Positions 1-50,900 of a stretch of DNA of 64,000 nucleotides are shown here, one piece after another. Each line of letters starts with the position of its first letter. The first letter of the stretch is position 1. The notes beneath the pieces were generated by a model. That model was not told where the DNA came from. It saw only the letters and a list, made by a program, of their open reading frames with translations, and searched no databases. The DNA is from Octopus sinensis (taxonomy: Eukaryota), in assembly GCF_006345805.1 (NCBI RefSeq), contig NC_043010.1, positions 62,434,001-62,498,000 on the forward strand, given 5' to 3'. The translations under genes and the position numbers were made by a program.

Positions 1-135
1 CAACCCCAGGATTTATTCTTTGTAAGCCTAGTACTTATTCTATCGGTCTCTTTTACTGAACCACTTAGTTACGGGGAAGTAAACACACCAACATCGGTTG
101 TCAAGTGATGTTGGGGTACAAACACAGTCACACAA

Positions 136-186
<51 letters not shown>

Positions 187-356
187 TATATACAACAGGC
201 TTCTTTCAGTTTCCATTTACCAAATCCACTCACAAGGCTTTGGTTGGCCTGAGGCTATAGTAGAAGACACTTGCCCAAGGTGCCACACAGTGGGGCTGAA
301 CCTGGAACCATGTGGTTGGTAAGCAAGCTACTTACCACACAGCCACTCCTATGTCT
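1..356 (-). mobile_element. tRNA-derived CORE-type SINE (family A, resembles octopus OR2-type SINE), 3' end cut by the window edge
   Basis: Reverse complement of the 7456-7860 copy: tRNA-like head, gtggcaccttgggcaagtgtcttc core, internal (TA)n(TG)n. Confidence 0.85.
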
Positions 357-459
357 ATTTTATTTTTTAAAGGGATCTCTTCAGTTTATCCCACAGGATC
401 TGATTTATTGCAGTTTTCTGCACCAATCAGGAAAATCTATGATCAAGAGTGTTCCCACC

Positions 460-1433
460 ATGGCCATCCTGAGGACATGCATAAGCTTGCAAGGAATGAA
501 GCCAGTATGCTCTGCTGGATGTGTAATGTCAGTGTGCATGCATGACAGAGTGTAAGCACCCTGAGAGAAAAGTTGGACTGAAGAAGCATCAGATGTGGTG
601 TACAAGAGAGACGGCTGCGCTGGTATGGTCATGTGTTGCGAATGAATGAGGACAGCTGTGTGAAAAATTGTCACACCCTAGCAGTTGAGGGAACCTGTAG
701 AAGATGTAGACCCAGGATGAGGTGGTGAAGCATGACTTTCAAACATTGGGCCTCACCAAGGCAATGACTAGTGACCAAGACCTTTGGAGATATGCTGTGC
801 TTGAGAAGACCTGGAATGCCAAGTGAGACGATAACCATGGCCTATGCCAATGCTGTATAACCCATTTAAGAATACCCTTCAATCATTGGACAATAAACTA
901 CGCTTGTGAAGACCTGTTGATGCAAATGAAATCGCTGTCGTGGCTGATGACAGTACCTATTTCTTTATTACCCACAAGGGGCTGAACATAGAGGGGACAA
1001 ACATGGACAGACATAGGTATTAAGTCGATTATATCGACCCCAGTGCTTAACTGGTACTTAATTTATCGATCCTGAAAGGATGAAAGGCAAAGTCAACCTC
1101 GGCTGATGACAGTACTGTCTGATTGGCACCTGTGCCAGTGGGACGTTAAAAGCACCATTTGAGCATGATTGTTGCCAGGGTCACTGACTGGCTCACGTAA
1201 AAAGCACCATTTGAGTGTGGCCGATGCCAGTACCCACTGACTGGCTCTCATGCTGGTGGCATGTAAAAGCACCCACTACACTCTCGGAGTGGTTGGTGTT
1301 AGGAAGGGTATCCATCTGTAGAAACTCTGCCTGATAAGATTGGAGCCTGGTGCAGCCTTCTGGCTTGTCAGCCCTCAAACTGTCCAACCCATGCCAGCAT
1401 GGAAAGTGGACGTTAAATGATGATGATGATGAT
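460..1433 (+). mobile_element. RTE-clade LINE 3' fragment (degenerate RT C-terminus, 3' UTR, (GAT)n tail)
   Basis: Remnant peptides NEASMLCWMCNVSVH, RLRWYGHVLRMNEDSCVK and DLWRYAVLEKT. The 3' UTR has ggcacgtaaaaagcacc repeats and ends ggacgttaaatgatgatgat. Confidence 0.85.
957..1100 (-). mobile_element. 5'-truncated SINE (family B) inserted in the RTE 3' UTR with a 15-bp target-site duplication
   Basis: ggctgatgacagtac occurs at 942-956 and 1101-1115. The insert matches the 3' half of the SINE at 14877-15334. Confidence 0.85.
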
Positions 1434-2291
1434 AGTATATCTAGGATTACATTATTTACAGTTAGCTGATTTGATGTTGTTTAGCCCCAGGTCAGCCATA
1501 ACCTAGAAGACCTATGACCAAAGAAGCTCCAGCTTAGTATACCTAGGCCTACATCCTACAACTGTGTCCTTCCTATTTTTAAGACTGTATGGTATGAGGG
1601 AAATTTAACTGGGTTTTTTAGCAGGTTGAGCAATAACATACAGGCTAGCTCATTAGTCAAAGTTGCTATATCATTAATCATAAAGGAGCTCAAATAAAAT
1701 CTTCCCTAAATTTTTTAGTGGACCCTTTTAAAGGCTAGGACTTGCTTGTGTGAAATAGAGAAATATACCCATGGGTAGGACACAGATCTATCACCAAACC
1801 AATGATGGGAATCTCTGATTGCCTGACCAGCTGGAAATAAGTCAAATTTCCCTTATAACACACCCTACAGTCTCAAAGAAGGACACATTGGATAGTATAG
1901 TCCTAAATAGACTGTATGGACCTCTTGGATCCTTTTGATTCCTTTTTTACACTGCTGGACCCCCATATTAAAAATAATCCCATTTTTATAATTAGATATT
2001 AGGAATTGCATATAAAAAAAAAAATTTAATACTTTGTGAATTTTAGATGTACAAGCAATCTATTACTCTTAGTCTTATATGGACCCCTAAGGGCCATATG
2101 AGCCCCAGTTGCAAACCGTTGGGCTAGATCCCTTTAGCATTCAAACTGGCTGTATCCAGCCAAAGCATTTTACCTGCCAGAATCTGGCCTTTGCCAGCCA
2201 CCCTATAATTTCATTCTGAAAATCTCCAATAACATCAGAATCTCAAACTTACAAGAAAATGAAACAATTAATTCAAAACAATGGGAATAAA

Positions 2292-2572
2292 TATACATTA
2301 TTTACATTTGACGAATATTTGTCCTCACCTTGTTTGTTGTTAACACGTTTCGGCTGATATACCCTCCAGCCTTCATCAGGTGTCTTGGGGAAATTTCAAA
2401 CATGGGTTCTCATTCCTAAGGTATTTTTCAATCTTCTTATTATTATTCATATCACTGCCTAGAATCAAACTTGGAATCTTGGGGTTAGTAGCTCGCACTC
2501 TTAACCACTATGCCATATGCCCATGGGTAATTATGGAGTGAATTTTAGGGCATATGGCATAGTGGTTAAGAG
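2292..2572 (-). mobile_element. tRNA-headed short element with a Penelope-type minimal hammerhead ribozyme motif, copy 1, with an inverted duplicate of its 5' end
   Basis: A-box-like TGGCATAGTGG and B-box-like AGTTTGATTC. Motif gacac-CTGATGA-a-ggctg..cagcc-GAAAC-gtgtt at 2384-2342. Perfect 25-bp inverted repeat at 2498-2522 / 2548-2572. Confidence 0.7.
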
Positions 2573-4024
2573 CTTCTATATACCAAATTTACTTACGTGG
2601 CATTGGTTGGTCTGGGGCTATAGTAGAAGACCCTAGCCCAAGGTGCCATGCAGTGGGGTTGAACCTGAAGCCTCATGGTTGCAAAGCAAACGTCTTAATC
2701 ACACAGCCATGCCTGACATGAATAAAGGGGAATGGCTTTGGCCAGGGATTGAAACCACACACTGCTGCCAACATACCAAATGGTTATCTTTTGTTTTTTA
2801 GTGTTTTGTCACTAAATAGTGCATCATAGCAAGATGCATGGGTAGGGTGCTGAATTCCTGACCAAAAGATCGGGAGTTCAAACTGTACTCCACTCCAGCC
2901 GTTGTAGTGAATCAACAAGGAAGTAAATATGTGGTCACCTGGTATGTTAGAAATAGCAGCTAAATCTTGAACACTTGCGCTGTAACTCCTTAGAAAAATA
3001 GGACTACATCAAAAGAATAACCACAGTTGGGATGCTTTTGATCATAGGTCTGCTGGATCAAGGTCAGCCGGTGGTTAAACAACAACAACAAATACGACAG
3101 TGACTCTGTGCCTCTATGCAAGGCACATAACTCTGCTAAAATATTAAACAACAGGAAAAGTGTTGTCATCTGACTCGTGTCTCTAACTCAGGGATCAGCA
3201 AAACTCCATACATCATTGACCCCTTTGTGGAATCATTGATAACTTATCGACCCCAACCACCACACCATGTTAATTTCTAAAATACAATTATAAAATGTAA
3301 TTAATAAAAAAAATGTCTTGATTTAAAAGTTATAAAGAGGAGATGGCACACCTGTGTGAGAGAGGCAGGTGGGTGTCTGTGAGTGATTGAATATCATTTA
3401 GTCAGGTGGTCCTTCATTTGTAAGAAATATTTAAACAAAATTTAATGAAAATACTTAATGAAACTGAATAAAAATTCAATATCATTTTGACAAACTCGGA
3501 ATACTGGTTATGGCATTTATTCAGATTCAATAATTTTAGCTAAAAATTCCTCCAGATTCTATGCCTGGAGCCATTGTTATAGTTTCAGCCCTCCTTTTTT
3601 TAATGCTGGTATGAATTGGGTGGGCCTGGTATTCTAAGGCAAAATTTTATGGCCTGGTTCTTTCTCATTGCTAACCCTTTTAGTGGTCTGTCATGATACG
3701 AAGGGACACTGTATCCCTAATCTAAAATCTGTATGTCTTTCATCACCCTGGGATAAGGTAAGACAATGCTCTTTCTCAATAAGTGCTGCACGGAATTTTG
3801 TCAGTGAACAGGTCGCAGTCTCAAAGCGACGAAAATATTTTGACAAATTAAATTTAAATGTTGAAGTGAATCTAACGGTTTTTGTGTTTCTTAAATGGCT
3901 TATAAACACCTTCCACACTGCAATTGTTTTTGATCCAGCACACGATCTCAGATCAGGTCACTTGCTATGTAAGTACATCTCCGTAATGTTTTTATTATGA
4001 CTGAACATTTGAAAAACAGTTCTA

Positions 4025-4289
4025 TTTAAGAGATGAGGAATTATATACATATGCCCATTGGGCATATGGTGTATTGGTTAAGAGCATGGACTACTAACCC
4101 CAAGACTCCAAGTTCGATTCCAGGTAGTGACCTGAATAATAATAACATCGATAAAATTCCTTAGGAATGAGAACCCAGGTTCGAAATTTCCCCAAGACAC
4201 CTGAAGAAGGCTGGAGGGTATACCAGCCGAAGCGTTGTGTTAACAATAAACAAGATGAGGACAAATATCGTCAAATGTAAATAATGTAT
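4025..4289 (+). mobile_element. tRNA-headed short element with hammerhead motif, copy 2
   Basis: Aligns with 2292-2522 in the opposite orientation. B box AGTTCGATTCC; motif gacac-CTGAAGA-a-ggctgg..ccagcc-GAAG-cg-TT-gtgtt at 4196-4241. Confidence 0.7.
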
Positions 4290-5066
4290 TGAAAAAATGG
4301 TGTGTATGCATGTGTGTACCCTTGTCTGGCCTTGAGGATATATTACTACCTTGCTTAGAAAGAATTGAACATTGGTGACATGACAGGGCATGTCAGCTCA
4401 ACAAATTCCGTCCAACCCACGCAAACGAAGAAAGGTGGACATCAAAACGATGATGAGATGATGCAGATGGTGATGACTCTGTTCTGGATGCAAGACCAAA
4501 GGCAACATGAAACACAAAAGGCTGAGTGTTCCAGGAAATGTCTGATCCCGTTTAGACCAGTTTTTACTTATGGACCCCTTTCGTTCCTGTTTTAGTTGAA
4601 CCACAAACCATGCAAGGGCCCAGCAAACCCCTTTACCAAGCAGCCACACTTCGTGGGTGGATTGCAGACAATGACGGAAATGGGCCAAATAAATTCAGTC
4701 TTGGATGGCTTTTATCTTTCATCTTGTTTTCAGTCATTAGACTGCAGCCCAAGCGGGAGCACCACCATGAAGAATTTTTTAGCTGAATCGATTGGCCCTG
4801 GTACTTATTCTATCAGTCTCTTTGGCCAAAATGCTAAGTTACAGGGATGTAAACACACCAACACTGGTTGTCAAGCAGTGGAAGGGAACAAACACAAATA
4901 CATCATCATCATCATCGTTTAACGTCCGCGTTCCATGCTAGCATGGGTTGGACGGTTTAACTGGGGTCTGGGAAGCCAGAAGGCTGTATCAGGCCAGTCA
5001 GATCTGGTGGTGTTTCTACAGCTAGATATATATATATATATATATACATTCATATATATATATATA

Positions 5067-6311
5067 CAGGGTGCGATGGGTAAATTGTCACCATTTTATA
5101 TTTTTAATTTTGTGGATGTGTGTTGTTTGCCATTGATTTTGTCAACTACACAGTATAGTAGGGTCAGTTGGGCACTGTCTGTGATAAAAACAGCACCATA
5201 ATGCAATTCATTTTGCCAGAAATTAGGAAACAACATGCTGCACTGCTTGGCATTTGTGCCAGAAGCTCCAATACAAACGTTTCAGAGTGTTTGGAAAGAG
5301 TTGGATGAGTCTAATGCTGATTGTGAAGGTATGGCAGCTTAGAAAACTCACTCTGATAAGAAAAGAACTCCTGAATTTGTTGGTGAGATCCAGGCCACGA
5401 TTGACAATGATCCCTCCAAGTCAATCAGGTCCATCACCAGGGACATGGTGGTGTCTGAGTTTCTTATCAGGCAGGTAGTGCTTGAAGACATTCAGTATTT
5501 CTCATACAAGACGACAAAGGGCCAATTTTTATCCCAAGCCATCAACGACAAGAGGAAAGACTGTGCTACGAAGCTTTTGAACAAACTCCAGCATCCTCTC
5601 CAACAGAACATGCTTTGATTGGTTTTTCTCAGACGAGAAAAATTTCTGCCAGGATCAGATGAACACACAGAACAACCGTTGGCTTGCCATGTCCTCAAAA
5701 CATGTACTGAGAGTGATAAAAATCAAACATCCAGTCAATATCATGGTGTTTGGAGTGATGGCGATGTTATGCTTCCATTCATCTTTCCACACAGCCTCAG
5801 ACTCAACATGGAGGCTTACATTAAGTGCCTAGAGGAGGCAGTGCTTCCCTAGGTCATGAGGGTGGCTGCCGGAAGACCCCATGTCTGGCAACAGGACTCA
5901 GCACCATGCCACACAAGCAGAACCCAGTCATGGCTGTCAGACAATTTCTGCGACCACATCACACCTAACATCTGGCCACCCAACTCCCCAGACTGCAACC
6001 CTTTGATTATTATATGTAGGGCACAGTTGAGTGAGAGACCATGAAAACTCCTAACACGAAAGATGAACAGAAGGCAAGGATTATGGCAGCCTTGACCAAC
6101 TTAACAAGGAGACCATTCAGAAGAGTTGCAGGAGATTCCGAAATCATCTGGATGCCGCGGTTGAAGCCAATGGCGATTTTTATTGAATAAATTTACTCTT
6201 TAGTATTTCAAGATATTTTAATGTAATTTTGGTAAATATATCTGTTAACATGAGATGTCAGTGTTATTATCATTTTTGTATAATTTAGACAAGTTTATTC
6301 ACCACACCCTG
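5067..6311 (+). mobile_element. Defective Tc1/mariner-superfamily transposon, probably DD37D (maT)-like
   Basis: TIRs cagggtgcgatgggtaaattgtc and gacaagtttattcaccacaccctg, left end after TA. Frameshifted transposase WQQDSAPCHTS...IWPPNSPDCNPL(D), with 36 residues between the 2nd and 3rd Asp in this copy. Confidence 0.85.
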
Positions 6312-7455
6312 TCTGTTTATATATATTATAATGGAATGATTACTTTGCATTGTTTTGGCCTTACCCACGATCTTTTATACTATATATATATTGTATAACG
6401 GGCTTTCTTCAGCTTTTGCTCACTCAAATCCACTGACAAGGCTTTGGTTGGCCCAAGGCTATATTTAATAATAAAAATGCATTAGGATTTTCTAAACATT
6501 GAATGTCTATGAGGGTCCACCAGAATAAAAGAGGTCCATAGGTAAAAAATAGTTGGGAACCTCTGCTACAATAGAAGACCCTTCCTAAGGTTTCACGTAG
6601 TAGGACTGAACCCAGAGCCATGTGGTTGAGAGGTAAACTTTTTACCACACAGTCTTGCCTATGTTTATTTTCCATTTAACAGTAGCACTGTCCTAGATAT
6701 GGGAGTGGTGTTCCATAATTTCTTGTCTTTTAGTGAGGAGGGAAGGGCCGTGCTCATGACTCTTTAGAGGGCCTCAGACTGGTTAGAAGGGAGGTGGATA
6801 TCTTCAAACGAGAGACCTACATGAAATGGTTGCAACAGAGTTGGGGGGGGGGGCTGTAAAGTTATCAAAGGGACCAAGTGGGTGACAGATTAAACTTTGG
6901 CCCATCATGTTGCTGTACAACTGTTCTCCACTGTAGCTGCAGGCACAATGTGTTGCATTGAGAGGGGAGAAAACTCATATGGTGACATGTTGCACCTACA
7001 GTGTGCTAAAGATCAAGTCTATCACTTAAGTAAGCCATGGTGAAATCTGAATGCAAACAGCTAGAATAAACACCACAAGGGATCCAGCCTGACACTCTTA
7101 CACTCCCACTAATCTACTGTCTTGAATTGGAACAGTTTTCTTGCCCCTGGAAGGACGAAAGTGAAAGTTGAATCCTTAGTGGGGTTTGAACTCCAACAGC
7201 ACAGTTGAAGCAAATACCACAAGGTATTTTATCTGATGCTTTAAAGATTTAGCCAATTCCCCACCATTGAGCGGTGGTGGGAGCTCGCCTGAAAGGTTGT
7301 AGAGGGTTGGGGAACAATCAGAGAGAAAGCCCTACTGTCCAACTCTTATGACCAATCATAAACCAAACAAGAATTCAACCCTTTCCCACCACATCACTAT
7401 TCTAGCATCTCTTTTCAATTGAGAAACTCCAATTATATATGTATAGATATATATA

Positions 7456-7860
7456 GGCGCAGGAGTGGCTGTGTGGTAAGTAGCTTGTTTACCAACCACA
7501 TGGCTCCAGGTTCAGTCCCACTGCGTGGCACCTTGGGCAAGTGTCTTCTACTATAGCCTCGGGCCGACCAAAGCCTTGTGAGTGGATTTGGTAGACGGAA
7601 ACTGAAAGACGCCTGTCGTATATATATATGTGTGTGTGTGTGTGTGTTTGTGTGCCTGTGTTTGTCCCCCTAGCATTGCTTGACAACCGATGCTGGTGTG
7701 TTTATGTCCCTGTCACTTAGCGGTTCGGCTAAAGAGACCGATAGAATAAGTACTGGGCTTACAAAGAATAAGTCCCGGGATCGAGTTGGTCAATTAAAGG
7801 CAGTGCTCCAGCATGGCCGCAGTCAAATGACTGAAACAAGTAAAAGAATAAAGAAAGAAT
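7456..7860 (+). mobile_element. Full-length SINE family A (CORE-type)
   Basis: Head ggcgcaggagtggctgtgtggtaag, B box ggttcagtccc, core, internal microsatellite, tail ...ctccagcatggccgcagtcaaatgactgaaacaagtaaaaga. Further partial or diverged copies near 2580-2715, 4715-4900, 6395-6662, 18085-18230, 19985-20277, 26270-26420, 40735-41125, 41375-41510, 42480-42740, 45485-45795 and 61420-61713. Confidence 0.9.
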
Positions 7861-8190
7861 ATCATCATCATCATTCAATGTCTGTTTTCCATGCTGGCAT
7901 GGGTTGGACGGGTCGACCGGGGTCTGAGAAGCCAGGAAGTTGCACCAGGCTCCAGTCTGATATAGCAGTGTTTCTACAGCTGGATGCCCTTCCTAACGCC
8001 AACCACTCCAAGTGTGTAGTGGATTCTTTTTTACGTGCCACTGGCACAAGGGCCAGAGGGGGCTGGCCTCAATCACATTTGGAAAGTGCTTTTACATGCC
8101 ACCAGCAAGGGAGCCAGAGAGGGCTGGCATCAACCTCGATCAGATGGTGCTTTTTATGTGCCACCAGCACGGAAGCCAGTCAAGGCAGTG
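7861..8190 (-). mobile_element. RTE LINE 3' UTR fragment
   Basis: Reverse complement of 1130-1433, beginning at (CAT)n. Further copies near 4900-5025, 8280-8430, 8590-8760, 13775-13950, 20573-20757, 25800-26005, 41200-41350, 42285-42440, 44725-45075 and 61275-61400. Confidence 0.85.
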
Positions 8191-9071
8191 ATATATATTT
8201 CTATACATATATAGATATATATACACAGACATGTATGTATGTATGTGAGGAGTCTTGTCTCGTGCCGATGCCATGAAAGGAGCATAGTACATTCTGTAGA
8301 GTGGTTGGGGATTAGGAAGCCATAGAAAGCATGCAAAAGCTAATACCAGAGCTCAATGCCGACCGGCAGCTCATTGGATCTCCTCAAACCATTCAAACTA
8401 TTCCTGTATGGGTCATGGACATTAAATGATATGTATATGCCTGTGTGTATACACATATACACCTTAAAGGAATATTAAATCAACCCCAGTATCTCAATGG
8501 TATTTTTTATCAACTTTTGAAGGGCTCTATGCTTGTCAACCTTCTCTCCCCATCCACGTTTCATCACCCAACACCCAGAAAGGACAGGTGTTGGTGCCAC
8601 ACAAAAAAGCACTGGTGACGGTGCCATGTAAAAAGCACCCAATACACTCTGTAGAGTGGTCGGCATTAGGAAGGGCATCCAACTATAGAAACCAAATTAA
8701 AACAGACTATGGACCCTGCAGCAATGGAAAGCAGATGTTAAATGATGTTGATGATGATTAAGAAAGAAAAAAAAATACAAAGTTGACCTCAGCAGGATTT
8801 GAACTCCGACCACAAAGAGCAGAAATCTAAATACAAAACAATTATTATTTTGTCTGATGCTCTACCGATTCAGCCAATGCACATCACCTGTCGATCTATC
8901 AAACTCCAAAGGAAAATCCTGTCTGTGTTTTCTGCTAAGATTCTTCTAGAAAATCCCAGGAACGGGAAGAAACGAAACAGAAAATAAGAGATGCAACAAC
9001 AACAACAAAAATAAACACACAACAAAAAAAACAGAAAAGTAAAATACCACACAGTCATTCCTGTGTTTCAC

Positions 9072-9077
9072 TTTAAT
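9072..9077 (-). terminator. Candidate polyadenylation signal (ATTAAA) for ZNF-A, implying a 3' UTR of about 2.1 kb
   Basis: ATTAAA on the minus strand followed by a long U/GU-rich tract (about 9045-8995). The interval 9050-11140 lacks the common SINEs. Confidence 0.35.
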
Positions 9078-10696
9078 TAAACCCCCCCTCTCTTTTTGTT
9101 GATGATATTTGTTTGTTTTCTCTCTCATTTTTTTTTTTTGTTTTTTGTCTTTAATTGTCTTTAGTTTGTCGTTTGAAACAAATCTCCACATTTTACAGTT
9201 TAAAAACATTGTTGGGGGGGGGAACATTTCATTTTTAGATAATAATAATAATAACAATAATAATAATAATAATTGTTATTTCATTTTCATTTTCTGTTTC
9301 AAAATCAAATTTTTTTTTTTTAGAGATGAGGAGGTGTTTATTATTATTGTTATTATTATTATTATCATTTATAATTTTTGTTTTTCTAGTAAAAAAAAAA
9401 AAAAAATTCATTTTTCACTTTTGGAGCAAATATTTCTGTATATATATGTTCATTTTAACATCTACATCCCAGACACATGTTGTGAAGGAGGAAGTGGAAC
9501 CGTGCTTTGTCAGAGAGGCAGAGCAAGGAGAGAGAGAGAGACGAGAGTCTTGCCTAATGACCCAAAATAATGGCTGAAATAACAGTATGACTTGCAGTGG
9601 CTACGGTAGCTGTAAGGCTTGACCTTATAATAGCCAGGAAGGTCCATAAGTGCCCCCCCCCCACACAGACACACCTTATCTTCATCTCCCAGCCATTCCG
9701 ACATCACATCAACCTTATTGTTTTTATTATTATTGCTCATGGTTGGCAAATGGTATAAAACAAAACCCAATTAGCAATGTTTTGGGTGATTATTATTATC
9801 ATCATCATCATCATCATCATCGTTACTATCATTTTCCGCCTCCTCGTCTTTCAACTTTTGTTTGTTTTCAAAGTAAAATCCATGTAGCATGGTGTGTAAC
9901 ATGTTGCGACATGTGGCGTATTGTAAACATGTGACACAGTGTAACATGTAATTGTTTCATCACCATTACAGTTTCTTGATCTTTGTCAGTAATACACACT
10001 CATATATATATATACATACACTTATACACATACATATGTGAATGTGTGTATATATATATATATATACACACTTATACACATACATATATATGTGAATGTG
10101 TGTGTGTGTATATATATATATATATACATACACACACATTCACACAACTATGTGTATGTATGTGTATATATATATATACACAAAGGTATGTATATATGTC
10201 ATTTCATCATATTATCAATTCAATTTTTTATAAAAAAATCAGACAAAAAGGGAGACTTTTGTTGATGTTATTACTGTTTTTGTTTTTTTGCTTGGCTGTT
10301 TTTTTTTGTGGTTTCTGTATATTTTGTTCCTGTCTTTTGTAAAAAAAAAAAAAAAAATCTTTTTCAAATGCCTGAAAAATAAGAAAATGAAAAAGGAAAA
10401 AAAAAAAAACCCAACTATGTAAGGGTGTCGGGGTGGGGGAAGAGAGAAGGAAAAAGATATTGGGGGATCGGAGATGGGGGGTGTGTGTGAAAAACCCTGC
10501 ACAACGGGATGGGTGGAGATGTGATGGAGGTGTTTGTTTGAGTGAAGGTCACATGTAAAGAAGAGATACAGAAATGGGAGGTATGGTGAAGAGACGCATA
10601 TGCGCGTGTCATAGGTGTGTGTACACATACATACGCATAATTATATATACGCGCATGTGAGTATCTGTGTATGTATACATATACATATGAAAATAC

Positions 10697-10767
<71 letters not shown>

Positions 10768-11139
10768 CAAAATAAGCAAGGATATCCAAGGTGGTGTAGT
10801 ACAATCGTTTCATGCTACTTCATTTTATTAAACACTGTAAGTATTACATCAGTTTTAAAATGTCGAGCAATCTTCAGGCATTTAAAACTGATGTAATACT
10901 TAGTGTTTAATAAAATGAAGTAGCATGAAACGATTGTACTACACTACCTTAGATATCCTTGTTGCTTATTTTGATTATCTAAATCTTGCTGAACTTATTT
11001 ATATATATATATATATACATATGTATACATACATACATATATGTACATACATAGATAGATACACATATACATAAAGTAGAAAAGTAGAGAGTGTGTATTA
11101 GCGTGTGTTGTGTGTTTTATGGATGTGTAGGAACCATTC

Positions 11140-12135
11140 TCAGTTGTCGCTAGTCTTATGCATACGTTTGTGCCTGAGCAGTGTGTCACTACGAGCAAAC
11201 TGCTTGCTGCAGATAACACACTGAAACGGCTTCTCGCCGGTGTGAGTTCGTCTGTGTGTTTTCAGGTGATGCTTCTGTCCGAAGTGTTTCGAGCAAATGT
11301 CACAGTGGAATGGTTTCTCTCCGGAGTGAGTGCTCTTGTGGATGCGCAGCGTGCCGCGGCGAGCAAACTGCTTGGTGCATACGTCGCAGTGGTAGGGCTT
11401 GGAGGAGTTGTCGGACTTTGGGATCGCGGCAGCTGCAGCTGCACGGGCCCGCGAACGAGCCGCGGTCGATGCCGTCGTGTTCCGAGAGCGAGCCGGGGCC
11501 GGTGCCGTGACAGGCTGTGGGGGCAGCGGAGCTTGTGGAGGCGGTTGTGGTGCAGGAGACATGGGAGAAGGGGCCGAGGAAGAAGAGTCGTCGTCTCCAT
11601 CATCATCGCCGTCCTCGTCGGCTTCTGCATCCTGGTCGGTCTCGGCGTCAGCCGGTTCGGTTACTGGGACTGGCGTGTTGTTCACCATGACAAGGGGCGT
11701 TGCTCTGTTGCCGCTGATGCTGACCATAACTCTCGCATTTGGAGGAAGTGACCCACTGCCACCACCACTGCTAGCAGTACCACCACCACCACCACTACTA
11801 GCACTGAGACCAACACCACTAGAACCACCACCACCACCACCACCAACCATAGCCATGCCACTGGCACCACCGCCACCTCCTCCACCACCACTGATAACAG
11901 AAGCGGCCGCTGCTGGACCTCCCATGTTGCTATTATTACTGACGCTGCTGTTTGGAATTTTCACAGGATGGTGGTGATTCTGGTAAGTTGGTCTCTGCAA
12001 GACCAGTGGCGCCACTGTCAGCTTCTCAACATTGTCGTTGACATGTGCCGTCTTCTGGTGTTTCTCCAATGTTTTACTCAGTAGGAATTTCTTCCCACAA
12101 ATCTCGCAGTGGAATCGTTTCTCCATAATTAGCAT
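11140..12135 (-). CDS. C2H2 zinc-finger protein ZNF-A (about 331 aa): one N-terminal finger, Gly/acidic/Pro/Ala-rich spacer, three C-terminal fingers
   Basis: Uninterrupted ORF. Fingers CEICGKKFLLSKTLEKHQKTAH, CDVCTKQFARRGTLRIHKSTH, CDICSKHFGQKHHLKTHRRTH and CVICSKQFARSDTLLRHKRMH, with SGEKP/TGEKP linkers. The ORF track starts at a TTG (12159); the first ATG is at 12135, with another at 12126. Confidence 0.93.
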   Translation of the reverse strand: MLIMEKRFHCEICGKKFLLSKTLEKHQKTAHVNDNVEKLTVAPLVLQRPTYQNHHHPVKIPNSSVSNNSNMGGPAAAASVISGGGGGGGGASGMAMVGGGGGGGSSGVGLSASSGGGGGTASSGGGSGSLPPNARVMVSISGNRATPLVMVNNTPVPVTEPADAETDQDAEADEDGDDDGDDDSSSSAPSPMSPAPQPPPQAPLPPQPVTAPAPARSRNTTASTAARSRARAAAAAAIPKSDNSSKPYHCDVCTKQFARRGTLRIHKSTHSGEKPFHCDICSKHFGQKHHLKTHRRTHTGEKPFQCVICSKQFARSDTLLRHKRMHKTSDN

Positions 12136-13474
12136 CGTACCACTCCAAAATACATACAATAATACTTTCGCTCACCTTCTCTTTCACTTCTGTTACTGTT
12201 GTTGCTGTGGATGATTATACTTGAGTTGTTGTTGTTGTTGTTTACGATAGTCTTGTTATGGCAGCTGTTGTTGTAGTTGGCTTACTTTCAGTTCCAACAA
12301 GATCAACACACAAATATATATATATATGTGTGTGTATGGATATGTGTATAGTTTTCTTTCGTCACGAGTGTTGGACATGAAACATATGTGAGGGTTGTAA
12401 TGACTGGGTACTTGTGACAGAATCCTGGGTACTTGTGACAGAATCCAGGGCTCCAAAAATGACCTCCACAAATTTATTGCAAAAATATACTCCTGAAATT
12501 TGATTTCTGGTGAAAACAAGTGTATATAAAAGTATATACACAACTATATGTATATATTGATGTATATATAGTGATGGGGAAGAGTCACTGTCGGTGAAAT
12601 TTGGTGAAGAAATGAAGAAAATTCTTAAAGGCTGGTGCTTCTCATATTGTTGACTGTTGCGAAGAAAAAAGGATGAGGGTCTTTGGAGAAATAATGAGAG
12701 TGGAATATTTTGAATAATGTGAATATATCAACTTGAAAATGTGTTCATTTTGGTTTAGGGTTCAGATAAGGCCCCTAAAGAAAATATCCAGTGTTGGGGA
12801 CTAAAACAGCAATTAAAATATATTCAATGAGTGAAAGGTGATCAGAGTGGAGTGTAGTGGAGAGTGTACGCAGCAGATGAGTGAGAGGTGTCCTGAGATG
12901 CCGAGTGTATCTATCGAGTAGAGTGCAGTGTCCATTGAGTGATTGCATTTAGAGTGTGGCTAAAAGATGAACGAATGTCCCCTTTTTTTTATTTTTTTGC
13001 TTTAAAAAAAAAAAAATTCTCCACTGGGTGAGTGCAGAAAGGGGTGTGGGTGAAGAATGTCCTTAAGACCTCGAGTAAAACAGTAGAGAAACAGAGATAT
13101 AGAACAATGTCGAGGTTTGGTGTTGGAAGTGATGCACATGAGAAGAATTAGTGAACTTCATCCAGGAGAAACCGGTTGCAATGTTGAACCTTCTGGTTCT
13201 TTGTCCTGCTTTGAAAAGGGCTTCAGTACTTGTCTTCTGCCCCCGACACTTGATGCTTTAATCTTTAAAACTGTCTTGGTTTCAACTTGCTGTGTAGCCC
13301 AATATATTACTGGTACTTCACTGACACTGGAGGGAAGAGTAGCTGATGTCTGGTTGGTTTTTTTAAAAAAAATGGTTTGATTTTTTTCACTCCTCTCAGA
13401 TAGAAAGTAATGAACACGGAGCAGATTCTCATTCACCTGGCATTGCACATTGGTAAGAAGGGGTCTCTAGGGAT

Positions 13475-13505
13475 CTGCAATACAGGAAAAAAAAAAAAGA
13501 CACAT
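13475..13505 (-). other. Putative 3' splice acceptor of the ZNF-A coding exon (exon would start at 13474, giving a 5' UTR segment of about 1.3 kb)
   Basis: Minus strand reads a long T-run then cctgtattgcAG|atccct. Repeat-rich sequence stops here and unique sequence begins. All three frames close soon after the junction. Confidence 0.55.
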
Positions 13506-13950
13506 TTTAATAAACTCCATATATGGTGTTCACAAAAGCTGCTCCTCTCACAGCTCTTTCAGTCTGAATATCAACAGAAATGGATAAAATTCAAAGATAA
13601 ATGGAAGAAGAATGTTTTTAACTGTTTCCTGACCATATTTCTAACAAAAAGCACAGACTGTCTTTATGAATTAGCACTTTTGTTACCATATTTCTGTTGA
13701 AACAAACTGTCTTTGTTCCACATAATTTGGAAAATGAAGAATTTACTGAAATGTCTGTTGTTATTACAAAGCATTCATGCTGGTGCCATGTGTGAGGCAC
13801 CCGTGCTGGTGCCACATAAAGAGCACCCAGTTGTAGAAACTGTGCCAAAACAGACAGCTGGGGCCTGGTGCAACTCTCTGGCTTGCCAGCCCCGGTCAAC
13901 CTGCCCAACCCATTCCAGCATGGAAAACAAAGGTTAGATGACGATGATGG

Positions 13951-14416
13951 TTAACCCTTTCTTTACTACATTTCTGTTGAGAAGCTCTGTGTTTCTTTCA
14001 ATTACTTTAAATATAACAAAGAATTTAGTAAAATAACTTAGTTATCATTAAGCTAGTGTTAGGAACATAAATTGTGACTAAGGTTTGGTGGAAGATTTTA
14101 ATTCAAAACTTATGAAAACAAGACATTTGTACTACAGAGCCAGAGCTGGTTTCAGCCGGGTTGGTATTGTTTCTCTATTATATATTTTAACCGTTTTGTT
14201 ACCATATTTCTGTTGAGATGCTCTGTGTTTCTTCCAATTAATTTTAAATATAACAAAGAATTTAGTAAAATAACTTGGTTATCATTAAGCTAGTGTTAGG
14301 ATCATAAATTGTGACTAAGGTTTGGTGGAAGATTTTAATTCAGAACTTATGAAAACAAGACATTTGTACCACAGATTCAGAGGCGGTTTCAGCCAGGTTA
14401 GTATTGGACGGGTTAA
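13951..14416 (+). mobile_element. Tandem dimer of TTAA-flanked MITE family M1 (piggyBac-like ends)
   Basis: Two similar units of about 220 bp starting TTAA-CC; the second ends GGG-TTAA. Linker ttgtttctctattatatattttaa. Confidence 0.8.
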
Positions 14417-14876
14417 AATGCTATTTAGAACATAAAGGTTTTAATTTTGATTACTTTAAAACAGGAGTTTGAATCATAGAACTAAGGGTTGTCACATGTA
14501 GGGCTGGTATCAAAAGGGTTAATTTTTTGTCAATTTCAAGTATCTACATCAGTGGTTCTCAACCATTTAAAAAATATATTTAAGGATCCCCTTTGATTAT
14601 TATTTTGCTTGGATAGACCCCTATAATCATTTGGTGTTTATGGCAACGAAACATGGGCTCTCAACCACTACCATCATGAATGCCCTTTTTGTAGCTCAAT
14701 GGAAAATGGATCGAATCATGCTCAGCATCACATTGCAGGACCAGAAGACCAACCCCTGGATCTGACAGCACAAGTGAGCTGAAGGGCCATCAAAGGGAAC
14801 AAATACAGATGGGCTGGTCACATCACTTGTCTGGAGAACAACAGCAGGACAATCAGGGCGTTGGAATGGGCGGCAA

Positions 14877-15334
14877 ACTGGCGGCGAACTGGCAGGATCG
14901 TTAGCACGCCGGGCGAAATGCTTAGCGGTATTTCGTCTGCTGCTATGTTCTGAGTTCAAATTCCGCCAAGGTCGACTTTGCCTTTCATCCTTTCAGGGTC
15001 GATTAACCCTTTAGTGTTTGCATTATTCTACCAAAATTAATGCTTTTTCATCCACATTGCCTTGAACTAATCAGGCATTATCTTGTAGCTTTGAGATTTT
15101 GATGAGGTAGCTGTTAATTTTTAAAACAATATTGTAGGGTTGGTGTGAGAGACCAGATCTGGCCAGTTTGAACATAAAACAGGCAGAATACTTTTGGCCG
15201 GATATGGCCGGTTTAAATGCTAAAGGGTTAAATAAGTACCAGTTACGCACTGGGGTCGATATAATCGACTTAATCCGTTTGTCTGTCCTTGTTTGTCCCT
15301 ACTGTGTTTACCCCTTGTGGGTAGTAAAGAAATA
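14877..15334 (+). mobile_element. Full-length SINE family B, split by a MITE
   Basis: Head ggcggcgaactggcaggatcgttagc, B-box-like gagttcaaattcc, central gtcgactttgcctttcatcc. Imperfect TSD ggaatgggcggcaa (14863-14876) / ggaataggcagcaa (15335-15348). Confidence 0.8.
15007..15227 (+). mobile_element. TTAA-target MITE family M2 (piggyBac-like)
   Basis: TIRs ccctttag / ctaaaggg. TTAA is duplicated at 15003-15006 and 15228-15231, and removing the insert restores the host SINE (gtcgaTTAAataagtacc). Other copies at 2131-2290, 17553-17781, 19181-19634 and 24605-25435 (split). Confidence 0.88.
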
Positions 15335-16261
15335 GGAATAGGCAGCAAGACAATGGACAAGATCAAGAGGCAGACCAAAGATAAAATGGGGAGATGACCT
15401 CACCCACTACCCGAGGACTACATGGCCACGACTAGGCAGAGGTGGAAGGAGTCCAGGGAAGGGTTCTCCCTTGAAGAGTGATGAAGCCCTGGATAAGGAT
15501 GGACAAGGAAGAATCTGAATGCTAAAGGGTTAATACTCAAGAGTGGGGCAAGTCAAAAGGGTTTGGGTTTGCTTGGGTTCATGCAGGTATCAACTGCTTC
15601 TGTTCATAATAATTAATGTTTCTGTTGAAGTTAAACTGGACTTCAACAGAAACATAGCAACAAAAAGGTTAGTGTGATTTGACTGCTATTTCTAGACCAA
15701 TGCAAAACCTGCAGAAGTTAGTGGAACGGCTGACAACTATGAAGGTTACGTCAATAGTGAAGAAAAGCTATTTCGCCTTCGATATCCATCTGCCAGCCTG
15801 GTGAACTGGGTGCCCTGAAGAAAGGGTCACAGGTGCTGCCCCCATTCTCCCCTCACTCAGCCATTAAAAATAAAAAGTAAACAAAACTAGAAATACCTCG
15901 CGGTATTTATGTCCAACCGAGTTATCTCCCCTTCTGTTTGCATTTTATGTCTTATGAGATTGATGAAATACCGGATTGATGAAACACCAGATTGATGTGA
16001 CTAATGAAGTTCAGTGGGTCACAGTCATTTTTTTCCCGATTGACCCCTTTTGACTCCAATTCTACCTGGGTGGACTCCCATAACCATTCAATGTTTAAAA
16101 AATCCTATCATATTTTTAGTTAAATATTATTAGGAATTGTATAAAAAATTGTTAAAATATTTCGTAAAAATAAAACAAATTTATTCTTTTATACATTTCA
16201 GTCCTAAGGCTGTGACCATGCTGGAGCACCACCAGTGCAAGCACCTTTTCAGTGGCCAATC

Positions 16262-16470
16262 TTATGTGACTGGCTTTTGGTGAAGGAGGGTATTCAACAC
16301 TGCTGCCCTCTTTTGGGTTTCCTGCCTTGGTATAACTTCATCTGGGACCTTGGATAGCAGGAAGTAGAGTTGTTTCTTGAAAATATCTACCCCTCTTCCA
16401 TGATAATTCCTCAGATGTTTTGGCAAGGCGTTAAATAGCTGTGGGCCCTTGAATCTCAAACCAGTGCACA
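16262..16470 (-). mobile_element. CR1/L2-group LINE ORF2 C-terminal remnant
   Basis: Peptide LRFKGPQLFNALPKHLRN...FKKQLYFLLSKVPDE...RAAVLNTL resembles the end of such ORF2 proteins. Confidence 0.65.
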
Positions 16471-16524
16471 AAAATTTTAGTAACAAAATCTTATGTGGAG
16501 CCTCAAGGGTCAAGAACCAATGAT

Positions 16525-16930
16525 AATCATCATCATCACCGTTTAGAGTCCGTTATCCACGCTGGCATGGGTTGGACGGTTTGACTGAGTTCTGGAGAGC
16601 CAGGAGGCTGCATCAAGCCTAAATTTGATCTGGCAAAGTTTCTACAGCTGGGTGCCCTTCTTAATGCCAACCACTCCGAGAGTGTAGTGGGTGCTTTTTA
16701 CGTGTCACTGGCACAGGAGCCAGTCAGACAAGCCTGGCATCAATCATGTTTGGATGGTGCTTTTCACATGCCACCAGCACAAGAACCTGTCAGGGGGGTA
16801 CTGACATCAACCATGATTGGTTGGTGCTTTTCACATGTCACCAGCACAAGAACCTGTCAGGGGGGTACTGGCATCAGCCATGATCAGTTGGTGCTTTTCA
16901 CATGCCACCGGCACAGGAGCCAGTCAGGTG
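16525..16930 (-). mobile_element. RTE LINE 3' UTR fragment with about four internal tandem units
   Basis: (CAT)n, then ...ccgagagtgtagtgggtgctttttacgtg, then repeated ggtgcttttcacatgccacc units. Confidence 0.85.
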
Positions 16931-18612
16931 GACATGCCCTTTGATGGTGGTACTCCAGCATGGCCACTGCATGAAACCAGCAGAAGAAGAATTTACTACA
17001 GTACACAAGTGAAACATCTGTGGAGGTGAGTAACGTTTGTGAGAAGAGTACAGGAGGACAACAGCATGGCAGCGTGATGTTGCACCACGCTGCTGCAACA
17101 TACAAGTGCAGCCGTGATACAGCATGGCTGCTGGGCCAAGTGGGTAAGGGATTTCACTATGTAATCACAGAATGTGAGTTCAAATCTACTGTAAGGTGGT
17201 TTTTGTAGCGTTTCTAGACAGAATGTTGTATTGTACATTACTTCTTGTCACCAACATCCACCTGTCAGGTAATATTTCTCCGTGGCCAGACATTTTCCAC
17301 AGGAGTCTGGGAACAAACATCATTTGTATGGCAGCAATATTTCATTTACAACCATCACATGATATCAAAACAAGGAAACACACACACACATACGTTTTTA
17401 CTTTCAGTATCGTTTTTTAATGTTCTTCTTAAGGTTTTATCATCAAAACTGGCCAAATACAACCTCTCACACCTACACTACAATATCAGTCTAAAAAACA
17501 AACACTCAGATCACCAAAGTCTCGAATCTACAAGATAATAATACGGGATTAATTTAACCCTTTAGTGTTCAGATTATTCTGTCAAATGTGATGTTTGTTT
17601 ATTGAAAATGGTTTGAATTAATCCTGTATTATCTTGTAGTTTAGGGATTTCAGTAATGTGATTTTTTAGTTTTAGAATGACATGGTAGGGCTGAGGTGAG
17701 AGGCGAGAACTGGTCAGTTTCAGTATAAAACAGGTTAAATATTTTGGCCAGATATGGCCGGTTTGAATGCTAAAGGGTTAAAACAATGTGAGTAAAGATG
17801 CAGAACACTTGACAGAGATAATCTGAATGATAAAGGGTTAAGGGAGTTGAAGTCAGTCGCTAACAAAGTGGCATCACTTTTTGAGTCCTGAGAGTTTCCT
17901 GTGACTATAAATACAAGTTTGGTTGAGGTGTCGATGCACCACACACCCAAGTGTGCGCATCTGTTCACCAAAAGAATCTCAGATGGAGAATCCACATTAG
18001 TTTCTTTTGCTTTTTGTTTGAAAAACCTAGTATTTCTAGGTTTTTGTGAAAATGTATTAGCACATAAACAAATGCACGAGAGGCTTCTTTCAGTTTCCAT
18101 CTACCAAAAAATTTACAAGACTTTGCTCGGCCCAGAACTATAGTAAAGGACATTTACCTAATGTGCTGCGCAGAGGGGCTCAACCCCAAACCACATGACT
18201 GTGAATTTTCTTAACCACACAACCACATAGGTACCTGGATGTTGGAAGTCGATCAGTTCACCTGGAAATCTTAGCTGTGATATACCAGAACCTTATGCAA
18301 ATGGAGAGCCATCTCACTCTCACTATCCCTGTCACATTTCTAGAAAGAACTCTTCATTCTACACATCCAGAGCTCATTGAGCCAACAGCAATAAGCCCCA
18401 AACCACACAGAAATCTTATACAACACCCCAATGTCTTATCCAAAGGAAAATATTTATATCTCGTCCTGTGTTTCTCAAGAGAACCCTATAGTCTGCATTG
18501 CCTCAGTTCATCTAGCTCAGTGGTTCTCAACCATTTTTATTCTATGGACCTCTTTCACTCCTATTTTACCTTACTGGACCCTCAGTCATTTGATGTTTTA
18601 AAAATTCTGTTA

Positions 18613-49720: not shown

Positions 49721-50900
49721 TATTATTATTATTATTATTATTCAAATTATGATGAAATTAAACAAAAAGTTTGCTTTAGAAGCGTTGAGATGTATTGAAA
49801 GATAAGGAAATAATTTTATTCTTAGACGCAGGATAATGCTCATAATATAGCATGAACAAGACAAACTGCCCATGTGGTCAGTTTAGCTTAAAGGTAAAGC
49901 ACTGTGACACATAATCACAGAGATGTGATTTCGAGTCTTATGGCTGGCTGCCGACACATTTTTCTGCAAAATACGGGTAATTTATCCTGTTCATGCTATT
50001 TTATCAGCATTATTCTGCATTTGAGAATAAAATTATTATTATTATTTTTATTAAGGTGGTGAGCTGGCAGAATTGTTAGCAAGCTGGACAAAAGCATTCT
50101 GTTTGTCTCCACATTCTCAAGATCAAATTCTGCCGAGGTTGACTTTGCTTTTCATCCCTTGAGGGATCGATGAAAAAAGTACCAATTGAGCCCTGGGGTA
50201 GCTGTAATCAACAAGACCCCTCCTTGCAAAACTTCAGGCCTTGTGCCTGTAATAGAAAGGATAATTATCGTTGTTGTTGTTGAACTGACAGATTCATTAG
50301 CACATTGAACAAAATACTTCTCCAAAATCTTTAGATTCTGAGAACAGGGCTACCAATTTTAGGGATGAGAGTAAGTCGATTATATCAGCCCCAGTGTTCA
50401 ACTGGTACTTATTTTATCAGCCCTGAAAGGATGAAAAGTAAAGTCAACCTAGGCAATGTTTGCCCAGCACACTTATCAATTTTACCAGCTTACCATCTTA
50501 GAAATCATAATAATAATGATTTCAAATTTTGGCACAAGGCCAACAATTTTGGGGGAGAGGGTAGGTTGATCACATCAACCCTATTGTTCACCCTGAAAGG
50601 ATGAAAGACGAAGTCGACCTCGGCAGAATTTGAACTCAGAACACAAAGTCAAGTGAAATACCGCTAAGCATTTTGCCTGGTGTGCTAACAATTTGGCCAG
50701 CTTGCCACCTTAGTAGTAGTAGTAGTAATGATAATAATAATAACAATCCTTTCTACTATTGGCAGAAGATCTGAAATTTGGGGAGAGTGATAGTCGATTA
50801 CATCAACCCCAAAAGGATGAAAGGCAAAGTTGACATGTCAGAATTTGAACTCAGAATGTACCAATTGGCAACGTGCTGCTAAGCATTTCACCAATAAAGC
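49470..50900. mobile_element. Cluster of about five SINE family B copies in mixed orientation among (TAA)n/(TAG)n tracts
   Basis: Repeated gaaaggatgaaaggcaaagt.gacc motif near 49575, 50425, 50595 and 50812, and its reverse complement near 50140. Confidence 0.8.

What the first reader, a model, noticed from the sequence alone, without database searches (positions are those of the whole stretch)
2292..4289. Short element fusing a tRNA-like Pol III head to a minimal hammerhead ribozyme motif (two copies, different lesions)
Seen: two copies of about 230 bp (2292-2522 minus, 4060-4289 plus) start with tRNA-type A/B boxes. Each then carries stem I gacac/gtgtt, core CTGA(T/A)GA, an extra A, stem II ggctg(g)/(c)cagcc and GAAA-CG-TT. 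Copy 1 keeps GAAA but has lost 3 nt at the cleavage site; copy 2 keeps the site but reads GAAG, so the two-copy consensus is an intact core. Known: Penelope-like elements carry minimal type I hammerheads whose palindromic stem III (here ACGU) forms in dimers, and Schistosoma SMalpha combines Pol III boxes with a hammerhead. Inference: this may be a Pol III-driven, ribozyme-processed non-autonomous retroelement mobilised by Penelope machinery. I do not know of a description in cephalopods but cannot exclude one.
Basis: partly seen in the sequence, partly recalled or inferred. Interest (0 to 1): 0.8.

Follow-up and report, generated by a model that had tools for sequence, protein, structure and literature searches.

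The report
Penelope retrotransposon with tRNA-derived promoter head
The two short repeats are not a stand-alone SINE but the end-repeat of a protein-coding Penelope-type retrotransposon that has picked up a tRNA-derived segment, which likely works as an RNA polymerase III promoter and may drive the whole element, an arrangement I did not find described for this group.

Summary
Both copies are real (86% alike) and carry a tRNA-like A/B-box head and a minimal type I hammerhead. They belong to a family of roughly 30,000 copies. The unit is the pseudo-LTR of a Poseidon-type Penelope-like element with a period of about 2.65 kb. The head starts 29 nt after the RT/GIY-YIG ORF stop, and the hammerhead lies inside the first codons of the next ORF copy. 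Copies show Penelope hallmarks: inverted 5' partners and two 3' ends about 30 nt apart. 5' ends pile up at the head (58 of 75 copies that reach it stop there), including ORF-bearing copies. Short copies carry no variants of their own, so an independent SINE lineage is not supported. Hammerheads in pseudo-LTRs are known; the tRNA-derived head is the unusual part (0 of 40 related elements have an A box there). The sense strand of the whole element lacks any run of four T (2.6-4.7 expected; P 0.01-0.06), which fits, but does not prove, polymerase III transcription of a protein-coding element. Cleavage, promoter activity and expression were not tested.

The parts
2292..2522 (-). Copy 1: pseudo-LTR of the Penelope-like element (head, AAT tract, ORF start, hammerhead), ending at the short 3' end without tail
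   Evidence: 3' end class at unit position about 259
2523..2551 (-). 29-nt spacer that in full elements lies between the ORF stop codon and the tRNA-like head; copy 1 extends into it
   Evidence: same stretch follows the stop codon in L029; window hit 2555-2524
2548..2573 (+). Inverted partner of copy 1: first 26 nt of the head, joined through a 4-nt GGGC/GCCC overlap and cut off by a different repeat at about 2575
   Evidence: read directly; seen as a hairpin
2505..2515 (-). A box of copy 1 (TGGCATAGTGG)
2461..2470 (-). B box of copy 1, damaged (GTTTGATTCT; family GTTCGATTCC)
2411..2413 (-). ATG matching the likely start of the element's ORF (copy 1)
   Evidence: frame open from this ATG for about 390 codons in natural copy L138, homologous to P0001 from residue 11
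2342..2384 (-). Minimal type I hammerhead of copy 1, 3 nt missing at the cleavage site
4016..4050 (-). Inverted copy of the element's 30-40 nt 3' tail placed at the 5' end of copy 2
   Evidence: reverse complement matches the tail that follows the unit in other copies; tail at either end is a Penelope signature (PMC8557442)
4051..4059 (+). Remnant of the GCCC-NN-GGGC fold-back junction at the 5' end of the head
   Evidence: same junction in many copies
4060..4289 (+). Copy 2: solo pseudo-LTR starting at the first base of the tRNA-like head
4060..4135 (+). tRNA-derived head of copy 2; A box 4067-4077 (damaged), B box 4112-4121 (intact); 45 nt between the box starts as in tRNA genes
   Evidence: 10.9 bits on the tRNA profile, shuffles at most 3.8
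4167..4169 (+). ATG matching the likely start of the element's ORF (copy 2)
4196..4241 (+). Minimal type I hammerhead of copy 2 (GAAA mutated to GAAG); predicted cut after 4236; also codes for residues 11-26 of the ORF
   Evidence: stems I and II are the minimum-energy fold, z = -2.4

Best explanation
The two copies are the terminal repeat (pseudo-LTR) of a Penelope/Poseidon-type retrotransposon, and this repeat begins with a tRNA-derived A/B-box segment that likely acts as an RNA polymerase III promoter and likely sets the 5' end of the element's RNA. Shown: one period is about 2.65 kb and reads head - (AAT)n - ATG - hammerhead - tail - RT - GIY-YIG endonuclease - stop - 29 nt - next head. 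Inferred: transcription starts at or just before the head. The element's own protein nicks AT-rich DNA and starts reverse transcription inside the RNA at one of two sites about 125 and 155 nt after the ATG, as shown in vitro for the anole Poseidon element. When it starts in the first repeat of the RNA it runs off the 5' end after about 260-290 nt and leaves a SINE-sized solo repeat that begins exactly at the head. When it starts in the downstream repeat it gives 5'-truncated or full-length copies. The cDNA end often folds back at a small GCCC-NN-GGGC hairpin or jumps template, which gives the inverted partners. The hammerhead is the ordinary pseudo-LTR ribozyme of this group; it would cleave only as a dimer or with the element's protein, and it does not set the ends of the copies.
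For: Parent element: RT domain (PF00078); relatives all carry the Penelope domain set, 54% identity to P0001 and 42% to an Anolis protein over the RT region; ORF end runs into the head in 26 of 29 endonuclease-picked loci, and the three exceptions are different deletions or a cut; natural full period head-to-head in L191. Penelope hallmarks: 3' ends at unit positions 255-259 (104) and 285-294 (79) of 243; inverted partner in 19 of 30 loci picked by the 3' segment and 14 of 30 picked by the hammerhead after dropping 3 microsatellite-only hits. 5' terminus: 58 of 75 copies that reach the head stop within -25..+16, a rate of 0.018 per nt against 0.0014-0.0057 elsewhere; genome-wide exact 22-mers fall from 2,764 (head) to 897 (63 nt upstream), about 13-17,000 to 2,200-2,400 copies after correction; 5 of the 9 ORF-linked upstream repeats that reach the head start there, and two template jumps occur at -2 and -5. 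Polymerase III fit: intact A and B boxes 45 nt apart with broken cloverleaf stems (read directly); 0 runs of four T in the 2,652-nt sense strand against 4.65 expected by shuffling, 2.6-3.9 by synonymous-codon shuffling (P 0.04 and 0.01); natural copies 0.40 per kb (43 in 107,429 nt) against 2.8 per kb in 45 T-matched related ORFs and 6 runs in 2,727 nt of a second Penelope family of the same genome. No A box after the ORF in 40 related elements, 20 of which show the hammerhead.
Against: No transcript, promoter or cleavage data: no listed run is on record as RNA and only contigs were laid. The T-run result is moderate: runs of four G are also absent (G 19.6%), T-run lengths fall geometrically (392, 75, 13, 0) so only about 3 are expected from that trend, and 2 of the 45 T-matched controls also have none. 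4 of 9 ORF-linked upstream repeats continue past the head into the previous ORF end, so templates that do not start at the head existed (expected in tandems, but also compatible with outside promoters). The only mapped Penelope promoter is a TATA-less internal promoter with a downstream promoter element like those of Drosophila LINEs (PMC2377424). A polymerase III RNA would be uncapped, and how the ORF would be translated is unexplained. The 5' pile-up coincides with a small hairpin that could itself favour fold-back.
Confidence: 0.6

Rival explanations
1. The head is a passenger or a polymerase II start region: a tRNA or SINE fragment was captured behind the ORF, the element is transcribed by polymerase II from within the pseudo-LTR as in Drosophila Penelope, and 5' ends collect at the head because the polymerase II start or a fold-back hairpin happens to lie there.
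For: Known Penelope promoter is internal and LINE-like (PMC2377424); capped RNA would explain translation; the GCCC-NN-GGGC hairpin sits at the pile-up; absence of T4 runs is only P 0.01-0.06 and G4 runs are absent too.
Against: Both boxes are kept at tRNA spacing while the cloverleaf stems are broken; the 5' ends fall where a tRNA-type gene starts (0 to -8 from the tRNA-equivalent first base); relatives have T-rich repeats with long T tracts (L244, L251) and the second family in the same genome keeps T4 and T6 runs.
Confidence: 0.25
2. One reading: the 230-bp unit is a SINE in its own right. Solo repeats are transcribed by polymerase III and are the templates for most new short copies, mobilised in trans by the Penelope protein.
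For: Short copies outnumber ORF-linked ones several-fold; they have a promoter-like head and no T4 run; non-autonomous Penelope derivatives are known (PMC8557442; bioRxiv 10.64898/2026.07.22.740005).
Against: No variant separates 105 short copies from 83 ORF-linked repeats: the source polymorphisms (positions 63, 173, 185, 242, 244) occur in both, lowest P 0.027 among about 30 sites; divergence is similar (4.5% vs 5.4-5.6%). In the anole element the template must extend to +172 of the ORF (PMC11167929), whereas these copies end at about +125 or +155.
Confidence: 0.12
3. The hammerhead defines the mobile RNA: self-cleavage at consecutive repeats releases unit-length RNA or circles, as in retrozymes and Schistosoma Sm-alpha, and the copies derive from these.
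For: Intact core and palindromic AACGUU for a dimeric helix III; tandem arrangement occurs (L192, L415, L420, L424); model proposed in PMC4209133.
Against: Neither 5' nor 3' ends cluster at the predicted cut (3 of 144 5' ends at 203-208; 3' ends at 259 and 287); cleavage would cut the ATG off the ORF; in the anole element cleavage was not needed for insertion and no reads ended at the site (PMC11167929).
Confidence: 0.03

Closest known systems
Penelope/Poseidon clade of Penelope-like elements, especially Poseidon of Anolis carolinensis (PAc; PMC11167929)
   Same: Single ORF with RT and C-terminal GIY-YIG endonuclease; pseudo-LTR that overlaps the ORF start; hammerhead at the start of the ORF; two 3' ends about 30 nt apart; inverted 5' partners; 36% (N-terminal) and 42% (RT region) identity to an Anolis protein P0006 that I take, without a label, to be a Poseidon protein.
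   Different: A tRNA-derived A/B-box segment opens the pseudo-LTR, 5' ends pile up at it, and the sense strand has no run of four T. The ATG lies upstream of the hammerhead rather than at stem II.
Schistosoma Sm-alpha / Sj-alpha SINE-like elements (passages in PMC6765202 and PMC2770079)
   Same: tRNA-derived, apparently polymerase III-type promoter followed by a type I hammerhead in a high-copy repeat.
   Different: Those are described as non-coding tandem SINEs whose ribozyme frees units from multimers; here the pair is the terminal repeat of a coding element, the ribozyme is the minimal form and is read as protein, and copy ends do not map to the cut.
Metazoan non-LTR retrozymes (PMC7761336; bioRxiv 10.64898/2026.07.22.740005)
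   Same: Short hammerhead-bearing units derived from Penelope pseudo-LTRs, many as dispersed monomers.
   Different: Retrozymes are head-to-tail arrays without a described tRNA-type promoter; these copies are mostly single or head-to-head.
tRNA-derived SINEs of octopus (OK, OR1, OR2; Ohshima and Okada 1994; title seen in a reference list, family names recalled, paper not held)
   Same: tRNA-derived head; the best match among the tRNAs sampled here was tRNA-Arg(TCT). The short form may already be catalogued under one of these names or as an unclassified SINE.
   Different: Could not be compared by sequence. A SINE entry would not show that the head belongs to an autonomous Penelope element.

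Membership tests
Penelope-like element (EN+, Penelope/Poseidon type) | Single ORF with PLE-type RT and C-terminal GIY-YIG endonuclease, without the Neptune-type linker zinc finger | tested here: met
   PF00078; relatives with PF00078, PF28514, PF26215; endonuclease read as VYSIPCSCGRLYKG...H...H at the C terminus. Pfam GIY-YIG did not fire on the fragments. No tree was built, so the clade rests on identity and domain order.
Penelope-like element (EN+, Penelope/Poseidon type) | Pseudo-LTR formed by partial tandem, carrying a minimal hammerhead | tested here: met
   L191, L192 have the repeat on both sides of the ORF
Penelope-like element (EN+, Penelope/Poseidon type) | Inverted 5'-truncated partner and optional 30-40 nt tail | tested here: met
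   19 of 30 and 14 of 30 loci with inverted partner; 3' ends 104 and 79 of 243 at two sites
Minimal type I hammerhead of PLEs | CUGANGA and GAAA core, extra nucleotide before G10.1-C11.1, long stem II, short stem I, palindrome in place of helix III | tested here: met
   matches the description in PMC4209133
Minimal type I hammerhead of PLEs | Covariation in stems | tested here: inconclusive
   none within the family; different stems around the same core in 13 related elements, stem II 2-9 bp
Minimal type I hammerhead of PLEs | Self-cleavage as dimer or with the element's protein | not testable with these tools
   the AACGUU duplex is predicted at only -3.5 kcal/mol and the unconstrained dimer folds otherwise
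tRNA-derived SINE | tRNA-related head with A and B boxes | tested here: met
   51 of 92 heads vs 0 of 460 shuffles; best alignment score 64 vs null maximum 47
tRNA-derived SINE | Non-autonomous lineage separate from its partner, sharing only the 3' end with it | tested here: not met
   the whole unit, head included, is part of the autonomous element; no private variants
tRNA-derived SINE | Transcription by RNA polymerase III | not testable with these tools
   indirect only: boxes, 5' pile-up, no T4 run
tRNA-derived SINE | Target-site duplications | tested here: inconclusive
   9 short copies without inverted partner: shared words of 4-6 nt in 8, 11 nt in 1; controls 3-5 nt
Non-LTR retrozyme | Head-to-tail arrays of short hammerhead units whose ends are set by the cut | tested here: not met
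   neighbouring copies are head-to-head; ends are not at the cut

The most novel reading that the evidence does not exclude
An autonomous, protein-coding Penelope-like retrotransposon that captured a tRNA-derived internal promoter and is transcribed end to end by RNA polymerase III, having purged polymerase III terminators from its 2.65-kb coding strand. Its internal start of reverse transcription then turns the first 260-290 nt of each transcript into SINE-like copies, a route from Penelope element to SINE.
Probability: 0.4. Interest if true: 0.85.

Novelty: new variant of a known kind. Interest (0 to 1): 0.62.

Why it matters
How Penelope-like elements are transcribed, and what their repeats and ribozymes do, is largely open; one promoter has been mapped. 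A family whose repeat starts with a tRNA-type promoter gives a clean, testable case: mutate two boxes, map one 5' end. If polymerase III makes the full RNA, it would be a natural protein-coding polymerase III transcript and would raise the question of cap-independent translation in this group. It also shows how SINE-like repeats can arise from Penelope elements and warns that tens of thousands of such copies would be filed as tRNA SINEs by automatic annotation. If the head is only a passenger, the finding is an ordinary Penelope family with an odd insert.

Tried and rejected
Rfam found no hammerhead or tRNA model match. ARAGORN at relaxed thresholds calls some heads tRNA-Ser(ACT) (15 of 92 at 80%) but also calls about two spurious tRNAs per control locus at that setting, so I gave it no weight. 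The parent tRNA is not determined: only 29 distinct tRNAs of 11 anticodon types (no Ser or Asn) were sampled, best match Arg(TCT). A head-less subfamily was considered and rejected: L103 and L107 are deletions with different breakpoints, L129 is cut inside the head. A separate SINE with the same head and another body was looked for in 9 loci (8 from the head-picked set and L202): two continue as the normal unit, the others are cut by unrelated inserts or flanks. RNase P-type processing at the head was considered and set aside because the acceptor stem does not pair (read directly). Sequencing runs: no RNA holder listed; four runs under four organism labels cover all 30 bins of a full copy, but as contigs, so they say nothing on start, strand, level or cleavage. 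The DNA around the closest relative P0001 could not be fetched, so whether it has a tRNA head or T-runs is open. Pfam family PF26215 is not in the genome-search library. Earlier findings: nothing returned. Papers not held: PubMed 7932738, PMC5785218, PMC108972. Repbase, Dfam and SINEBase could not be searched; supplements (for example the repeat library of PMC13282606) were not read and may contain this family.

Full report
Observation. The two copies are at the stated places and are 86.3% identical over 234 columns. Rfam does not recognise the motif, which is expected for minimal forms without helix III. The head is tRNA-like beyond chance: 51 of 92 natural heads reach 10 bits on a profile of 29 tRNAs of this genome and none of 460 shuffles does.

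Family size. The 35-nt hammerhead core of copy 1 has 1,463 exact matches. Exact 22-mers give 9,979 matches for the segment behind the hammerhead, 2,764 for the head and 897 for the spacer just upstream. Corrected for the share of copies that keep each word, this is about 30-35,000, 13-17,000 and 2,200-2,400 copies. Fifty stretches taken at fixed positions (499,800 nt) held six insertions, none with more than 33 nt from upstream of the head, which agrees. Non-CpG divergence from the majority is about 5%.

What it belongs to. In several loci the sequence upstream of the head continued into an open frame ending in a GIY-YIG-type endonuclease. Of 29 other loci picked for that endonuclease end, 26 run into the head, which starts 29 nt after the stop codon; the other three are separate deletions or a cut. 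Further upstream lies a reverse transcriptase (PF00078). Relatives of the RT region all have the Penelope domain set, the nearest at 54% (P0001) and an Anolis protein at 42%. Downstream of the 230-bp unit the sequence continues into the N-terminal part of the same ORF: the frame opens at an ATG 135 nt after the head start, runs through the hammerhead, and aligns with P0001 from residue 11 (49% over 377 residues). L191 is a natural full period from head to head, about 2.65 kb. The unit is therefore the pseudo-LTR of a Poseidon-type element, built like the anole element whose hammerhead also overlaps the ORF start (PMC11167929, parts 1-2 of 4 read).

Insertion signatures. 3' ends fall at unit positions 255-259 (104) and 285-294 (79) of 243, the two-site tail pattern explained in that paper by two internal starts of reverse transcription. 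An inverted partner abuts the 5' end in 19 of 30 loci picked by the 3' segment and 14 of 30 picked by the hammerhead, after dropping 3 microsatellite-only hits; this and the tail at either end are the features listed for the group in PMC8557442 (passages). Both window copies show them: an inverted head fragment at 2548-2573 and an inverted tail at 4016-4050. Many truncated copies join at the AAT tract to AAT tails of other repeats (32 of 117; examples), which fits the ATT preference of the anole enzyme.

The head marks a 5' terminus. Among 144 non-redundant copies from pattern-picked and fixed-position loci, 75 reach the head and 58 of them stop within -25..+16; the stopping rate is 0.018 per nt there and 0.0014-0.0057 elsewhere. 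Only 3 of 144 start near the predicted cut. Of 26 long loci examined, 9 have an upstream repeat that reaches the head start: 5 begin there and 4 continue into the previous ORF end; two template jumps occur at -2 and -5. Short copies (105) and ORF-linked repeats (83) share the same source polymorphisms, with no fixed difference. The non-CpG variants that fall in the hammerhead are at the free core position 7 and in loop II, which suits both ribozyme and coding constraint. There is no covariation within the family, while 13 related elements place the same core between different stems.

Is it a polymerase III promoter? For: the family keeps both boxes at tRNA spacing while the cloverleaf stems are broken, the usual state of a SINE head (read directly). 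None of 40 related elements has an A box behind the ORF, though 20 show the hammerhead. The sense strand of the whole period has no run of four T: 0 in 2,652 nt against 4.65 by shuffling (P about 0.01) and 2.6 or 3.9 by synonymous-codon shuffling of 710 codons (P 0.04, 0.01). Decayed natural copies have 0.40 runs per kb. Related ORFs have 4.3 per kb (67 of 80 loci; 13 left out as interrupted, near-duplicate or about 1 kb or shorter) and 2.8 per kb in the 45 with matching T content. A second Penelope family in the same genome keeps 6 runs in 2,727 nt at lower T content. Against: G4 runs are also absent, the geometric trend of T-run lengths predicts only about 3, two of the 45 controls also have none, the one mapped Penelope promoter is LINE-like (PMC2377424, passages), and an uncapped RNA must still be translated. 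No RNA evidence could be obtained.

Mechanism, step by step. Shown: anatomy, copy numbers, end positions, shared variants, lack of T4 runs. Inferred from the anole element: nicking of AT-rich DNA and internal start of reverse transcription at two sites. Inferred here: RNA begins at the head; starts in the first repeat give solo repeats; fold-back at GCCC-NN-GGGC gives inverted partners; polymerase III is the enzyme (about 0.6), for the full-length RNA as well (about 0.4). Untested: ribozyme activity.

Comparison and novelty. Hammerheads in pseudo-LTRs are known (PMC4209133, parts 1-2 of 4), as are non-autonomous Penelope derivatives (bioRxiv 10.64898/2026.07.22.740005, parts 1-2 of 5; PMC7761336 passages) and the promoter-plus-hammerhead design of Schistosoma Sm-alpha (passages in PMC6765202 and PMC2770079). 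Ten searches of the held library returned no paper whose listing or read passages describe a Penelope element with a tRNA-derived head; passages of two octopus repeat papers (PMC13282606, PMC8967140) list Penelope and SINE families separately. Subscription papers, repeat databases and supplements were not seen, and the short form may already be filed as an octopus SINE. Verdict: a real feature; a member of the Penelope-like elements; a new variant because of the head; not shown to be a separate SINE.

Noticed in passing
L381-L410 (for example L398:673-2727): A second, younger Penelope-like family (96-98% identical copies, 2,630 candidates) with a zinc-finger-like linker before the endonuclease and a long GT/AT microsatellite 3' region, Neptune-like; L398 has a 685-residue open frame. 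Used as the in-genome control.
   Followed up: partly
L416, L418, L420, L422, L423: Chimeric copies in which an N-terminal ORF piece ending near unit position 540-940 is joined to a short repeat, as if reverse transcription jumped between templates; several ORF pieces end at 600-780.
   Followed up: partly
L039, L043, L051, L060, L333, L346, L348: The 3' part of the unit is joined at its AAT tract to the AAT tails of at least two other repeat families, suggesting insertion into AAT microsatellites.
   Followed up: partly
window 2575-2717: A different tRNA-like repeat cuts off the inverted partner of copy 1; the same kind interrupts other copies (L185, L356, L362).
   Followed up: no
window 11140-12171 (-) and 55930-57378 (-): Two C2H2 zinc-finger open frames, of 343 and 482 residues, the second with a glutamine-rich start.
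   Followed up: no
window 49876-49952 (+): ARAGORN calls a tRNA-Met(CAT); its sequence looks degenerate and may be a pseudogene or repeat head.
   Followed up: no
L244:3001-4906 and L257:193-1611: Two related ORFs also lack T4 runs but have no tRNA-like head; L244 has a T-rich repeat behind the ORF.
   Followed up: partly
unit positions 75-135 (window 4135-4166): The leader before the ATG is an AAT/AAC tract; A-rich CAA-type leaders aid translation in some uncapped RNAs (recalled, not tested).
   Followed up: no
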